A stretch of 64,000 nucleotides of DNA, taken from the NCBI RefSeq assembly GCF_009914755.1, contig NC_060933.1. The stretch is one strand, 5' to 3'. The first letter of the stretch is position 1. Every line of letters starts with the position of its first letter. This DNA comes from the human T2T-CHM13v2.0 reference genome, Homo sapiens. Shown here one piece after another: positions 4,809-10,430 of this stretch. The notes beneath the pieces were generated by a model that had not been told where the DNA came from, searched no databases, and saw only the letters and a list, made by a program, of their open reading frames with translations. Made by a program: the position numbers and the translations under genes.

Positions 4809-7147
4809 CCTTGAAGTTCTACACCCAGATTGACCGGCTGTTCTCATTCCTAGTCTAGCACAATCCATAGAGGAAGGGATAAGTTAGGAGGCCCCGGGGA
4901 GGCTGGGCAGGCTGGAGGAAAGGGACACATCCTGACCCTTTGTCTTTCCCCATAGCTGTCCATTGCCCCAAGACGACATGTCATGCCTGAAGCTGGGAGT
5001 ATTTTCTCTCTCCATGATACAGAAGTTAAGGAAATGGGCTAATTCCAGTACTGGGGTCAGTTCTTTCTTGGGAAGAGCCTCTTTTTAGCTATGAAGATAA
5101 ATCTCCTGCCAGGAGGCCTGCTTCTGCATTAATAACCTGCTCTCCACAGACTTGGCTGCTGTCTTGGTGCACTTTGACCAGTTGGGGGCTCTCTTTCCCT
5201 GTAAATGTTGTAAGAGTCTCAAAGTAAAACGGAACCTGCCTTTTATTTCCTTTTTTGCTAAGCTACTGTTATGTCACTGTAACAGCGACATTCCCTCTTT
5301 TACAGAAATATTCATCATAAGAAAGGAAAAAGAGTATTTTATAAAAGAGCTTCTGAAAAACCTAGAACTTTCACTGAACTTCTGCTTTAATTTGTGATTT
5401 TGTGCTCTTAAGGGGAAAGTGATGGGTAAAACCCACAAGAGAACTGAAAACAGCTGTATGAAGAGGCAGTGCAGGCTAATGATGAGTGAAGAAGAGAGCA
5501 CAGTGCGCATTTCTAGAGGAAGAGGAAGGAAACTAGTGTGATATGGGAGTGGAAAATGGGATACAGAAAAGCAGGGAGGAGAGGGGAAAGTGTGTCAGCT
5601 CTCAGAACCAGCAAAGATGTATACTTTACTTAAGTTTAGGAGACTAACTTCATATGGGAGTGTACTCTGGAATTCTGAGAGCCAGGAAACAAATGTTCCA
5701 GGTGCCAGAATCAGTTAACCATCGACACGTGTATTCTGCCCTTCAATCTAGATGCTGCTCCTCTGACAGGTATTTATACAAGCCACCATTCCAGACTAAG
5801 TAGGACTTTGAAATGAGTTGAGACAATTTTTCAGCCTCTCTACAATTCATGACAGAATTCTGTTGTTTTACGCTGCCTAAAAACAATATATACAAGCAGT
5901 ATGGAATTTCAATGTAAAATAAGTTATTATTATTTATACCAGATGTGTAAATTTTGTGTGAGGATTTCCTTAATAATTATTAATCTCCTTTTTTCCTCAT
6001 TTATACACAACCATCTCCTGCTCTCTGAATTTCCTTGGTTCATGTTGTATTTTCGGCTGATTTTGACCAACTTTCTTTCTTTTTAAATTTTGCTTTAAGT
6101 TCCGGGATACATGTGCAGAACGTGCAGATTTGTTTCATAGGTATACGTGTGCCATGGTGGTTTGCCTCACCTATCAACTCGTCACCTAGGTTTTTTTTTT
6201 TTGAATTAATTTCGTATTTATTTTATTTTAACCATCCTTTCTCCTCCATTACAGTATACATTTCATGAAGACAGGAATTCCATGTTATTCTATTTCCTAT
6301 AATTGATGCTTAATACCTATTGTCAACTGATTCTTTTCTCTGTGCAATTCCTCTGGAGAAATATTTTGTTCTGTGCCAAGAAACAGTTTCATTCAACGGT
6401 TAAGGTGACTTGTGTCACTGATCTGATTTCCTTCTTTTACATTAACTATCAAAAATCTCAGACTTATTAATAAAGACATGTCTTCATAGGGTACATCTTT
6501 ATAATGGTCTTATTTTTATTTTATTTTCCTCCCTCTTTTTTTTCATTTTACTTTATTCTGTCCTAAATATTTAAAGTTTCAGCTAATTTTAAAGTAAAAG
6601 ATGCTCAATGGGAAAAGCTCACACAAATCAGAGCTACCTAAAAGTAGAGTTGGAAAGTCCCAAGGATCTTTTTCTCTGAGGCAAGCCTCTTTGCTTCTGA
6701 GTGCTTGCACTGCAGACTGGCTTATGAAGAGGTCACCATCTTTTCAGATTCCAGGGGCCCGTAATGTTCATACCACTGCAGTATTCTTACTACACACTGT
6801 AATAATCTGGAATAATAAGATCGTAGGCACTCTTTATTGCCCTCACATGTGGATCTGCCTTCTCCTTTTAAACAGCCATGTAACGTTCCCTATCTCACCT
6901 ACTTTGAATTTTTATATTCTTGCTGCTCTAAGGTTTTTTTTTGGAGCAAGGAAAGCAATTAAAAAAAATAAAATTTACTTTCAAAAGAAGAGTAGAGATA
7001 ATTAACCAGCCCTTGCCACCTAACTAAATATAATTCCCTAGTAACTCCTCTTGGAGCCACCAGGTTCCCTGGGAGTGGAATTGCCTGTGGAAAGGCCTAT
7101 GTGGATTCTGAGCTTGGGAAATGGTGACGGAGCCCTCTCTCTAGCCT

Positions 7148-7372
7148 CTCAGCCTGGCCAAACACGGTGAAACCCGTCTCTACTAAAAGTACAAAAATTA
7201 GCTGAGTATGGTGGCACGAGTCTGTAATCCCAGCTACTCGGGAGGCTGAGGCATGAGAATTGTTTGAATCCGGGAGGCAGAGGTTGCAGTGAGCCGAGAT
7301 AGCACCGCTGCACTCCAGCCTGGGTGACAGAGCGAGACTCTGTGTCAAAAAAAAAAAAAGAAAAAAAAAAAA
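7148..7372 (+). mobile_element. 5'-truncated AluS inside the retrocopy
   Basis: End of left arm, A-rich linker, right arm, A tail. Confidence 0.92.
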
Positions 7373-7546
7373 GTAAGAAATGAGTGAACATTTCAAAATG
7401 GCAGGAACTGGTTAAGTTTAAAACTGAAAACTTTCATTCTGACAAGAAAGCAGTCATTCCTTTTCTCCATTAACAGAGATAAAGAAAAGCTTTTCAAATC
7501 TGTATATGGCTACGCTGATTGACGTCCGAGTTAAAAATGAAATGTC

Positions 7547-7860
7547 GGCCGGGCGCGGTGGCTCACACCTGTAATCCCACCACTTTGGGAGGCCGAGGTG
7601 GGTGGATCATGAGGTCAGGAGATGGAGGCCATCCTAGCTAACATGGTGAAACCCCATCTCTACTAAAAATACAAAAAATTAGCTGGGCATGGTGGCATGC
7701 ACCTGTAGTCCCATCTACTCAGGAGGCTGACACAGGAGAATCACTGGAACCCAGGAGGCGGAAGTTGCAGTGAGCCGAGATTGCGCCACTGCACTGTAGC
7801 CTGGTTGACAGAGCGAGACTCTATCTCCAAAAAAAAAAAAAAAAAAGAGACAGAGAGAGA
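7547..7860 (+). mobile_element. Full-length Alu (AluSc-like) inside the retrocopy
   Basis: ggccgggcgcggtggctcac...gactctatctcc followed by A tail and (GA)n. Confidence 0.95.
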
Positions 7861-7985
7861 GAAATCTCATTTCCCTGTTGCTCAGTCACATTCCTATAAA
7901 CATACTACTTGCATGCCTGGACAGTTATCACCTTCCAACCTCTTATCTCGGTGATTTCCCAAGCTACAGAGTAAGATAGGTGGAG

Positions 7986-8092
7986 AATTTTTGTACTTTT
8001 AGTAGAGACAGGGTTTCACCATGTTGGTCAGGCTGGTCTTGAACTCTAGCCTACACAACAGAGCAAGACTCCGTCTCAAAAAAAAAAAAAAA
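7986..8092. mobile_element. Chimeric Alu remnant: antisense fragment fused to a sense Alu 3' end
   Basis: aatttttgtacttttagtagagacagggtttcacc...gaactc joined to tagcct...gcaagactccgtctc(A)n. Confidence 0.85.
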
Positions 8093-8104
8093 TAGGCAGA
8101 GAAG

Positions 8105-8690
8105 GGGTTATTTACATTTCACAGATGAGGTTCACAGGCCCTGAGTTATTTTTGCTACAGTCAACGTGAACAATAAAAACAGCAATTGTGCCCTCTGGTT
8201 TGAAGAGACCTGGCTCCACCCACCTGGTGGGGAAAACTACGCCTCCACCCTGGTCCCATGCCTGCCAGCTCTCACCTGGACTCCTCTGTTGTCTCACGTA
8301 AGTCACATCTAAGTATGACCTCAGCTGCTCAAAGGACTGCTGAGAAAGTTAGTCAAGTTATCCAACCAACACTCAGCAAACTGAGGACCCATCTGGGAGG
8401 TGGAGCCACCCTACCCAATCACAGCTGTTGGGAGTGTATCTGTCTCAGTGGGTGGCACAGCTGAGCTCCTACCTAGAGGTGGCCACCATGCTAGGAAGCA
8501 CCTTCGCCTTGGACAGTGGGCTCAGGTTCTGGCTCTGCCACTTATTAGCTATGCAGTCTTGGGCAAGTGACTTTACCCCTCCTCACTGCAGCTTCTTCAT
8601 TGTAAAATGAGAATACAGACACCAGAAGCTACCCATGTTTGTTGGTAAGTGCAAATGAGGCAGCCTATGTAAACAAGAGCCAGTGTCTTC
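8105..8690. mobile_element. MIR fragments (about 8105-8165 and 8510-8690) inside the retrocopy
   Basis: MIR core motifs catttcacagatgag and ggctctgccacttattagctatgcagtcttgggcaagtgacttt...tgtaaaatgag. Confidence 0.7.
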
Positions 8691-9566
8691 GTGCGGCAAA
8701 CCCCATGGCAAGTTCTCATGGAATATTAGCTATTACTGCTGTGTCTAGTCTATGTAAACTCACTGCCCTGCCCCAGCCACCAGCCACCACCCAGGAACAG
8801 CATGGTGCCCGGTGCAGAGTAACTGCTAAATGCTAAGTTAGTATACTCACAATGTACCTAACTCCCTGATGACCCTGAAGGAGGTGCACAATTCTTCCCG
8901 GAGGAGGCCCTGCCCTGGCTTAGGGCTGGCTCTGCTATGAGGGAGATAGCTGCCCCATCTAAAGCTGCTCTTACACCTTCCTGGACTGTCCAGAAAAACT
9001 CTCTATGGTTTGCTACAGACAGAACAGTCAGAAGGCGAAAGAGGGCCCAGATCCCCAGGCGCTATCTTACCCCAACTCCCTTCATTGCTAAGGCTAAGAA
9101 TGTCTGTGGGTCAGTGGAGAACAGGCAGCATTCATCTCATCAGAGAAACTACTCTTTCATGCGAACGTCTCCAATGTATGGACACCATTTTCCCACTGAG
9201 TGTGCTGACACCATAGAAACACGGATCTGTCTTTCTAAGTAAATATATGAATAGAAGCTTTAAAATATTTTAAGTACGGAGTCTATAATTAAGACACAGT
9301 GTTTGAGATATTTACACAGAAGATTAATGACTCCATGCACATAATTCATCATTGCTTTAGTATTACCAAGTAATATTAAGTTAATTAAGAGACATTGGGA
9401 GGCCAAAAAACCAGGCACGACCCAACTGCAGCCCTGCCATGGAAATGAATGAACAAGTCAGCAGGCAGAACTGAGAATCGGGAGACCCACACGGAGCTGA
9501 GGAGTATCTAAGAAACCAATGTCACTTGCACTGACCTGGTCTTGCCAGTTCAAGGTCACTCTCATC

Positions 9567-10430
9567 CGTCACCTAGGTTTTAAGTACAATTTTTTTTAAT
9601 CCAGTCTATCATTGATGGGCACTTGGGTTGGTTTTGTGTCTTTGCTATTGTAAACATGCTGCAATAAACATACACGTGCGTGTATTTTATAACAGAACGA
9701 TTTATATTCCTTTGGGTATATACTCAGTAATGAGATTGCTGGGTCAAATGGTATTTCTGGTTCTAGAACCTTGATGAATCGCCACACTGTCTTCCACAAT
9801 GGTTGAAGTAATTTACATTCCCACAAACAGTGTAAAAGATTTCCTATTTTTCCACAGCTTCACCAGCATCTGTTGATTTTGACTCTTTAATAATTGCCAT
9901 TCTGAGTGGCATGAGATGGTATTTCATTGTGGTTTTGATTTGCATTTCTCTAATGATCAGTGATGTTGAGTTTTTTAATGATTATTGGTCGCATAAATGT
10001 CTACTTTCGAGAAGATTCTGTTCATATCCTTCACCCACTTTTTGATGGGGCTTTTTGTTTTTGTAAATTTGTTTAAGTTCTTTGTACATTCTGGATATTA
10101 GACCTGTGTGAGTTGGGTAGACTGCAAAAATTTTCTCCCATTCTATGGGTTGCCTGTTCACTCTGATGATAGGTAGTTTCTTTTGCTGTGCAGAAGTTCT
10201 CTAATTAAATGCCATTTGTCAATTTAACTTTTGTTGCAGTTGCTTTTGGCGATTTCTTCATAAAATCTTTGCCCATCCTGTGTCCTATGTTTTCTTCTAG
10301 GGTTTTTATGGTTTTTGGTTTTACATTTAAGTCTTTAATCCATCTTGAGTTAATTTTTGTATAAGGTGTAAGGAAGTGGTCCAGGTTCAATTTTCTGCCT
10401 ATGGCTATCCAGTTTTCCCAGCACCATTTA
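9567..10430 (-). mobile_element. Antisense L1PA ORF2 3' fragment (its 3' tip lies at about 6085-6194); paralogs at 13984-14878, 24620-25576, 34780-35782, 46710-47700
   Basis: ORF2 C-terminal peptides WECKLLQPLWKTVWRF..., KWCWENW...[17 protein letters not shown]. Confidence 0.9.

What the first reader, a model, noticed from the sequence alone, without database searches (positions are those of the whole stretch)
6180..9581. 3.37-kb orphan retrocopy of an unidentified non-coding transcript downstream of IFNA7
Seen: a 15-bp direct repeat cgtcacctaggtttt at 6180-6194 and 9567-9581, a poly(T) at the left end, and a minus-strand AATAAA about 15-20 nt before the tail. The paralogous sites (24714-24728, 34873-34887, 46803-46817) carry one copy of the repeat followed by AA, giving the canonical L1 endonuclease site TTTT/AA. 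The cargo is not L1: it is GC-richer unique sequence with Alus and ancient MIRs sitting inside a much younger L1, so it was copied from elsewhere. It has no convincing ORF. Established: these are hallmarks of target-primed reverse transcription. Inference: it is a 5'-truncated processed copy of a long 3' UTR or lncRNA, or an orphan 3' transduction, inserted after the module duplicated. It is co-oriented with IFNA7 and ~1.5 kb beyond its poly(A) site, so read-through could capture a foreign 3' UTR and poly(A) signal. I cannot name the donor.
Basis: partly seen in the sequence, partly recalled or inferred. Interest (0 to 1): 0.8.

Follow-up and report, generated by a model that had tools for sequence, protein, structure and literature searches.

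The report
Twin-primed retrocopy of a chr3 transcript
The 3.4-kb segment downstream of IFNA7 is an old, probably inert L1-made copy of a non-coding RNA from chromosome 3, with its front 2.4 kb flipped during insertion, so it is an ordinary kind of event whose source is now named.

Summary
An exact 15-bp duplication flanks 6195-9566. Three in-window paralogous sites and one in the IFNA4 module are empty and read TTTT/AA. A T run and a minus-strand AATAAA sit at the left end.

The donor is in the same genome, on chr3 (T2T C3:53,669,965-53,673,333), and no other copy exists. It matches in two pieces of opposite orientation:
- Window 6202-7149 equals C3:53,669,965-53,670,915 (+, 96.3%).
- Window 7150-9567 equals C3:53,673,333-53,670,933 (inverted, 96.4%).
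- 17-18 donor bases are missing at the joint.

This is the signature of L1 twin priming. The donor has AATAAA 19 nt before the copy's end and no genomic A tract, so the tail was added to an RNA.

The parent RNA ran on the chr3 minus strand, antisense to the CACNA1D channel gene and 10.6 kb from its first detected channel exon. No L1 lies upstream, so an orphan 3' transduction is unlikely.

Copy and donor differ at 2.9% of sites, against 3.9-5.2% between IFNA module flanks. The insertion therefore came after the duplication, roughly 12-16 Myr ago by my estimate.

Only the 3' 0.95 kb is co-oriented with IFNA7. There is no ORF with a family match and no sign of function. The mechanism is known and interest is low.

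The parts
6180..6194 (.). Left copy of the 15-bp target-site duplication. It ends in TTTT, the first-strand primer for reverse transcription.
   Evidence: Exact repeat. The empty paralogous sites read ...GGTTTT/AAG.
6195..6202 (-). Remnant of the untemplated poly(A) tail, seen as T8 on the + strand. The last T (6202) could also be donor base 53669965.
   Evidence: T run 6191-6202. The donor reads ...AAAGCAC T GAATTAA with no T/A tract.
6203..7149 (-). Non-inverted, poly(A)-primed cDNA piece of 947 bp. It equals C3:53669966-53670915, with the RNA sense on the window minus strand.
   Evidence: 96.3% over 952 aligned columns; 30 substitutions in 945 aligned bases.
6217..6227 (-). Two overlapping minus-strand AATAAA hexamers. 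The one at 6227-6222 corresponds to the donor's signal. The one at 6222-6217 differs from the donor by one base.
7150..9566 (+). Inverted, internally primed cDNA piece of 2,417 bp. It equals the reverse complement of C3:53670934-53673333, with the RNA sense on the window plus strand. It starts inside an Alu.
   Evidence: 96.4% over 2,420 aligned columns; 66 substitutions in 2,398 aligned bases; junction sequences.
7149..7150 (.). Inversion joint between the two cDNAs. Donor bases 53670916-53670932 (17 bp, or 18 if C9567 belongs to the duplication) are absent. No microhomology at the joint.
7547..7850 (+). Full-length Alu carried in from the donor. A partial Alu lies at 7150-7384 and Alu fragments at about 7990-8095.
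   Evidence: Sub-threshold SRP-like Rfam matches, the Alu-type genome hits, and presence in the donor.
8517..8625 (.). Old dispersed repeat carried in from the donor. It is MIR-like by recall.
   Evidence: 23 short hits of 74-94% identity on other chromosomes, all to query 417-525.
9567..9581 (.). Right copy of the target-site duplication. On the minus strand its 3' end primed the inverted cDNA.
   Evidence: C9567 matches both the duplication and donor base 53670933, a 1-nt overlap.

Best explanation
An L1-encoded endonuclease and reverse transcriptase copied a polyadenylated, unspliced-looking, non-coding RNA from the minus strand of chr3 into the IFNA7 module. The RNA covered at least T2T C3:53,673,333 down to 53,669,966.

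Inferred steps, which follow the standard twin-priming model:
1. The + strand was nicked at TTTT/AA, and the TTTT end primed cDNA from the poly(A) tail. This gave 6195-7149.
2. The minus strand was cut 15 bp away, and its 3' end primed a second cDNA inside the same RNA. This cDNA ran towards the RNA's 5' end and gave 9566-7150.
3. Joining the two cDNAs lost 17-18 nt and left the 5' 2.4 kb inverted.

Shown directly: the donor, the two orientations, the gap, the duplication, the empty sites, the untemplated tail and the donor's poly(A) signal.

The parent RNA was antisense to the + strand L-type calcium-channel gene. The name CACNA1D and its gene extent are recalled, not taken from an annotation. 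The insertion came after the IFNA module duplications, about 12-16 Myr ago by divergence. It most likely does nothing today.
For: - Donor in two pieces of opposite orientation at 96.3% and 96.4% identity, separated by 17 bp.
- Only two genomic copies of the unique parts: 2 of 2 candidates, and 2 full-length matches among 25 scored.
- Exact 15-bp duplication, 0.05 expected. Four empty paralogous sites with TTTT/AA.
- The donor has no A tract at the tail position and has AATAAA at 53669990-985, 19 nt before the end of the copy.
- Only 10 small indels of <=7 bp, with 96 substitutions in 3,343 aligned bases (2.9%) and 71 of 3,243 at non-CpG sites (2.2%). Flanks against the IFNA16 module differ at 47 of 1,191 and 62 of 1,195 sites.
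- Plus-strand channel exons at C3:53683972, 53699636, 53756651 and 53757005 (Ion_trans) and at 53820037 (Ca_chan_IQ).
- The form is common. 5' inversions were seen in 3 of 23 processed pseudogenes and 165 of 897 germline L1s, and 132 of 287 inverted L1s had their two cDNAs within 20 bp of each other (PMC12016303, passages and section 8).
Against: - I have no transcript, CAGE or poly(A)-site data for the chr3 minus strand, and no gene annotation of chr3.
- No CpG island lies within 11 kb upstream of the donor: the highest CpG observed/expected ratio is 0.44 in 39 windows of 300 bp. The promoter is therefore unknown.
- Microhomology at the internal priming site is only 1 nt, and it is nil at the cDNA joint. 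The priming details are model-based.
- No other primate genome could be searched. The date rests on recalled substitution rates, and fixation in humans is untested.
- Placing the donor inside CACNA1D rests on recalled gene extents. The calls show only that the nearest detected channel exon is 10.6 kb away on the opposite strand.
Confidence: 0.9

Rival explanations
1. Orphan 3' transduction. An L1 (or SVA) once active upstream on the chr3 minus strand read through into the flanking DNA and used the downstream AATAAA. Only the transduced part, twin-primed, was inserted at IFNA7.
For: The cargo is collinear genomic DNA with Alus and an old repeat, and it ends at a non-L1 poly(A) signal, as transductions do. 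The true 5' end of the RNA is unknown because the inverted cDNA stops inside an Alu.
Against: - No L1 lies just upstream. C3:53673433-53677430 is unique sequence.
- The only L1-like pieces within 16.7 kb are fragments of 1.1 kb (53677748-53678874, 69% identical to a window L1) and 1.4 kb (53688281-53689729, 77%).
- The longest stop-to-stop frames in these 20 kb are 147 and 124 aa, far short of what an L1 active some 15 Myr ago should retain.
- The nearest fragment is 7.8 kb from the poly(A) site.
Confidence: 0.07
2. DNA-level duplicative transposition: a small interchromosomal segmental duplication with an inversion, with no RNA intermediate.
For: The copy keeps repeats and shows no intron loss, so nothing in it proves splicing.
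Against: - One end falls 19 nt after the donor's AATAAA and carries an A tail that the donor lacks.
- The insert has a 15-bp duplication at a TTTT/AA site.
- The inverted and direct pieces abut in the donor with a 17-bp gap, as twin priming gives.
Confidence: 0.02
3. Two separate insertions into the same spot: one of the 0.95-kb piece and one of the 2.4-kb piece.
For: The two pieces have different orientations.
Against: - A single pair of duplications flanks both pieces.
- The pieces are adjacent in the donor to within 17 bp.
- They have similar divergence, 3.2% and 2.75%.
- The 2.4-kb piece has no tail of its own.
Confidence: 0.01

Closest known systems
5'-inverted (twin-primed) L1 insertions and processed pseudogenes.
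   Same: A poly(A)-primed piece and an internally primed inverted piece from one RNA. One pair of target-site duplications. A TTTT/A cut site. The two cDNAs start within 20 bp of each other, as in 132 of 287 inverted L1s. 5' inversion is reported in 3 of 23 processed pseudogenes.
   Different: The template is neither L1 nor a spliced mRNA. It is a repeat-bearing non-coding RNA antisense to a channel gene. The pieces (947 and 2,417 bp) are longer than the germline L1 medians of 571 and 751 bp.
Orphan L1 3' transductions
   Same: Unique non-L1 DNA, collinear with a donor locus, ending at a downstream poly(A) signal with a tail and target-site duplications.
   Different: No source L1 lies upstream of the donor in this genome.
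Classical processed pseudogenes (retrocopies of spliced protein-coding mRNAs)
   Same: The same L1 machinery and the same hallmarks.
   Different: No intron loss can be shown. None of the 4 ORFs has a family match. The parent is not a detected coding exon.

Membership tests
L1-mediated (target-primed) retrocopy | Target-site duplication of about 7-20 bp flanking the insert | tested here: met
   15 bp, exact, 0.05 expected by chance.
L1-mediated (target-primed) retrocopy | Pre-integration site matches the L1 endonuclease consensus TTTT/A | tested here: met
   Four empty paralogous sites read GGTTTT/AAG or /AAT.
L1-mediated (target-primed) retrocopy | Untemplated poly(A) tail at the 3' end, downstream of a poly(A) signal present in the donor | tested here: met
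   An 8-nt tail that the donor lacks. Donor AATAAA lies 19 nt upstream.
L1-mediated (target-primed) retrocopy | A donor locus elsewhere in the genome that lacks these hallmarks | tested here: met
   C3:53669965-53673333 at 96% identity; it is the only other copy.
Twin priming (5' inversion) | The 5' part is inverted relative to the tail-bearing 3' part, both lie inside one pair of duplications, and they are adjacent in the template with a small gap or overlap | tested here: met
   947 bp direct plus 2,417 bp inverted, with a 17-18 bp gap.
Twin priming (5' inversion) | Complementarity between the second-strand 3' end and the internal priming site on the RNA | tested here: inconclusive
   Only 1 nt (C9567) is shared between the duplication and the donor.
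Processed pseudogene of a spliced mRNA | Introns removed relative to the parent gene, and a recognisable coding region | tested here: not met
   The copy is collinear with the donor genome apart from the joint. 0 of 4 ORFs match Pfam.
Orphan L1 3' transduction | The donor segment lies directly downstream of a full-length L1 in the same orientation | tested here: not met
   About 4 kb of unique DNA lies upstream. Only old L1-like fragments of 69-77% identity are present. No frame exceeds 147 aa in 20 kb.
Retrocopy of an annotated lncRNA | An annotated or observed minus-strand transcript with its 3' end at C3:53,669,966 | not testable with these tools
   No chr3 annotation or RNA data were available. 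0 papers hold 'CACNA1D-AS1'.

The most novel reading that the evidence does not exclude
The insert is a roughly 15-Myr-old fossil of a germline-expressed, polyadenylated antisense RNA from inside the CACNA1D locus that is not described in anything I could search. In its new place it may have been co-opted. Its co-oriented 0.95-kb end, with two AATAAA hexamers, could serve as a distal 3' end for IFNA7 read-through. Its Alu and MIR-bearing body could act as a regulatory or boundary element that sets IFNA7 apart from its paralogues.
Probability: 0.05. Interest if true: 0.5.

Novelty: new member of a known kind. Interest (0 to 1): 0.22.

Why it matters

The pair chr9:21.21 Mb / chr3:53.67 Mb could be mistaken for a small interchromosomal duplication with an inversion, and this shows it is a retrocopy.

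The insert is a clean presence/absence marker that separates the IFNA7 module from its paralogues in a cluster otherwise blurred by duplication and gene conversion. It also gives a time point: the insertion is younger than the module duplications.

It records that an antisense RNA within or beside CACNA1D was expressed in the germ line of an ape ancestor.

Nothing suggests an effect on interferon biology.

Tried and rejected
- Rfam over 6100-9700 gave 8 matches, all below the gathering scores and all Alu-derived (SRP, mir-1268, mir-3135). No known RNA family is present.
- Pfam on the 4 ORFs of >=60 aa gave 0 hits.
- A source L1 upstream of the donor was sought three ways and none was found: stop-to-stop ORFs in 20 kb, BLAST against the window's own repeats, and a genome-wide repeat check of the 4.4 kb upstream.
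- No CpG island that could mark a promoter was found upstream.
- Literature:
  - 'CACNA1D-AS1': 0 papers.
  - CACNA1D + antisense + lncRNA + intronic: 23 papers, 10 listed. One was opened (PMC5300904, one passage) and was irrelevant.
  - IFNA7 / retrotransposition / interferon gene cluster: 20 papers, 10 listed by title and abstract start. None deals with this insert.
  - Retrocopies of lncRNAs: 9 listed, none opened.
- Ostertag and Kazazian 2001 is not held.
- I did not confirm that a CACNA1D exon lies to the left of the donor. The intron placement is recalled.
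Full report
**Observation.** The 15-base repeat CGTCACCTAGGTTTT is exact at 6180-6194 and 9567-9581. 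It also occurs once each at 24714 and 34873 (exact) and at 46803 (2 mismatches). That is 5 matches against 0.05 expected, and 0 of 100 shuffles reached 5.

An alignment of both junctions with the three paralogous sites shows that the paralogues run uninterrupted through a single copy, followed by AAG or AAT. This is the L1 endonuclease site TTTT/AA. A genome search with the empty IFNA16-module site returned 7 matches at E <= 1e-40 (40 of 4,433 candidates were scored). One of them is a further uninterrupted site in the IFNA4 module, at C9:21198286-21198558, just outside the window. The IFNA7 site came back split into its two halves.

The T run is 6191-6202: 12 T, 4 of them in the repeat and 8 beyond it. 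Minus-strand AATAAA hexamers sit 14 and 19 nt from the tail.

**The donor.** The window's own genome holds exactly one other copy of the unique parts.
- The 943-base left part found 2 of 2 candidates, itself and C3:53669966-53670911 at 96%.
- The 1,467-base right part found itself and C3:53670934-53672402 at 97%. It also found 23 short matches of 74-94% identity, all to query 417-525 (window about 8517-8625), which is an old dispersed repeat.

With the whole insert as query, the donor matched in two pieces of opposite orientation, and a local BLAST confirmed this.
- Window 6202-7149 equals C3:53669965-53670915 on the same strand: 96.3% over 952 columns.
- Window 7150-9567 equals C3:53673333-53670933 reversed: 96.4% over 2,420 columns.
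- Donor bases 53670916-53670932 (17 bp) are in neither piece. If C9567 is counted with the duplication rather than with the donor, the gap is 18 bp.

**Junctions.** On its + strand the donor reads ...AAAGCAC T GAATTAATTTC..., while the copy reads ...GGTTTT TTTTTTTT GAATTAATTTC.... The donor therefore has no A/T tract at the tail position, and the tail was added to an RNA.

The donor's minus strand has AATAAA at 53669990-53669985, 19 nt before the last copied base. The joint at 7149/7150 is blunt, and the inverted piece starts inside an Alu. At the right end, one base (C9567) is shared between the duplication and the donor.

**Mechanism.** This anatomy is what twin priming predicts:
- one tail-bearing piece and one inverted 5' piece;
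- adjacent positions in the template, with a small gap;
- a single pair of duplications around both pieces.

In the model, the nicked + strand TTTT end primes cDNA from the poly(A) tail. The 3' end made by the second cut, 15 bp away on the minus strand, primes a second cDNA inside the same RNA. These priming steps are inferred from the model, not observed.

The form is common. A long-read survey found 5' inversions in 165 of 897 germline L1s and 3 of 23 processed pseudogenes. In 132 of 287 inverted L1s, the two cDNAs started within 20 bp of each other (PMC12016303, passages and section 8). The original paper (Ostertag and Kazazian 2001) is not held, so I cite it from recall and from that reference list.

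**Direction of copying.** The direction is not in doubt. The chr9 copy has the duplications, the tail and the empty paralogous sites. The chr3 copy is the collinear one.

**What the parent RNA was.** Its sense strand is the chr3 minus strand. Pfam searches of the genome place + strand voltage-gated channel exons at these positions:
- C3:53683972, 53699636, 53756651 and 53757005 (Ion_trans);
- C3:53820037 (Ca_chan_IQ).

By recall, this gene is CACNA1D, about 320 kb long with long 5' introns. That would put the donor in an early intron, antisense to the gene. The calls themselves show only that the nearest detected channel exon is 10.6 kb away on the other strand.

- The 30 kb fetched holds only two L1-like fragments: 1.1 kb at 69% identity and 1.4 kb at 77% identity to the window's L1s.
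- No stop-to-stop frame exceeds 147 aa in L012 (45 frames of >=70 aa) or 124 aa in L013 (30 frames).
- C3:53673433-53677430 is unique in the genome.
- No CpG island lies upstream: the highest observed/expected ratio is 0.44 in 39 windows (GC profile).

I therefore favour an independent non-coding polymerase II transcript with an unknown promoter, at about 0.8 within the retrocopy reading, over a transduction at 0.07.

**No coding or known RNA content.** There are four ATG ORFs of >=60 aa, the longest 134 aa, and 0 of 4 match Pfam at E <= 0.1. Rfam gave 8 matches, all under the gathering scores and all Alu-derived.

**Age and order of events.** Copy and donor differ at 96 of 3,343 aligned bases (2.9%). 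The two pieces give 30 of 945 and 66 of 2,398. At non-CpG sites the figure is 71 of 3,243 (2.2%). There are 10 indels, all <=7 bp, and no later repeat insertion in either copy.

The 1.2-kb flanks of the IFNA7 site differ from those of the IFNA16-module site at 47 of 1,191 (3.9%) and 62 of 1,195 (5.2%) positions. Other module pairs align over only part of that length. The insertion is therefore younger than the duplication, which fits the empty sites.

Set against recalled genome-wide divergences (human-chimpanzee about 1.2%, human-orangutan about 3%, human-macaque about 6.5%), 2.9% points to roughly 12-16 Myr ago. This is an inference, and no other primate genome could be searched.

**Relation to IFNA7.** The right edge of the insert is 1,745 bp beyond the annotated IFNA7 3' end at 11326. 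Only 6203-7149 is co-oriented with IFNA7, and the other 72% is antisense. Eight minus-strand AATAAA/ATTAAA hexamers lie between the gene and the insert. The inverted piece has none, and 6203-7149 has six (14 hexamers in 6150-11330). Capture of the foreign poly(A) site by read-through is possible but has no support.

**Literature.** I found no paper on this insert or on an antisense CACNA1D RNA. These searches cover only the held library, and I opened no supplements.

**Verdict.** The donor is now named, and the structure is corrected to a twin-primed, 5'-inverted retrocopy. It is a new example of a well-known kind of event, probably neutral, and of low interest.

Noticed in passing
window 13981-14134: The IFNA10 module holds only the right half of the paralogous site (87% identical to query 167-320). 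The left half, and so the junction, was not matched there.
   Followed up: no
outside the window, C9:21198286-21198558 (window about -5714 to -5442): The IFNA4 module has a further uninterrupted (empty) copy of the target site, 86% identical.
   Followed up: partly
window 33688-34887 and 45618-46817: The 1.2-kb left flank of the 34873 site aligns poorly with the other three modules (about 42% mismatches and 256-310 gap columns). On the right flank, the 34873 and 46803 sites pair with each other (7.5%) rather than with the IFNA7 and IFNA16 sites (22-27%). The modules therefore fall into subgroups or differ by other insertions.
   Followed up: no
window 6217-6222 versus C3:53669980 region: The copy has a second minus-strand AATAAA where the donor reads AATACA. 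This is a one-base difference, and its direction is unknown without an outgroup.
   Followed up: partly
L012 7430-8874 (C3:53677430-53678874): A repeat of about 78-84% identity to many loci abuts the old L1-like fragment. I did not determine its family or orientation.
   Followed up: no
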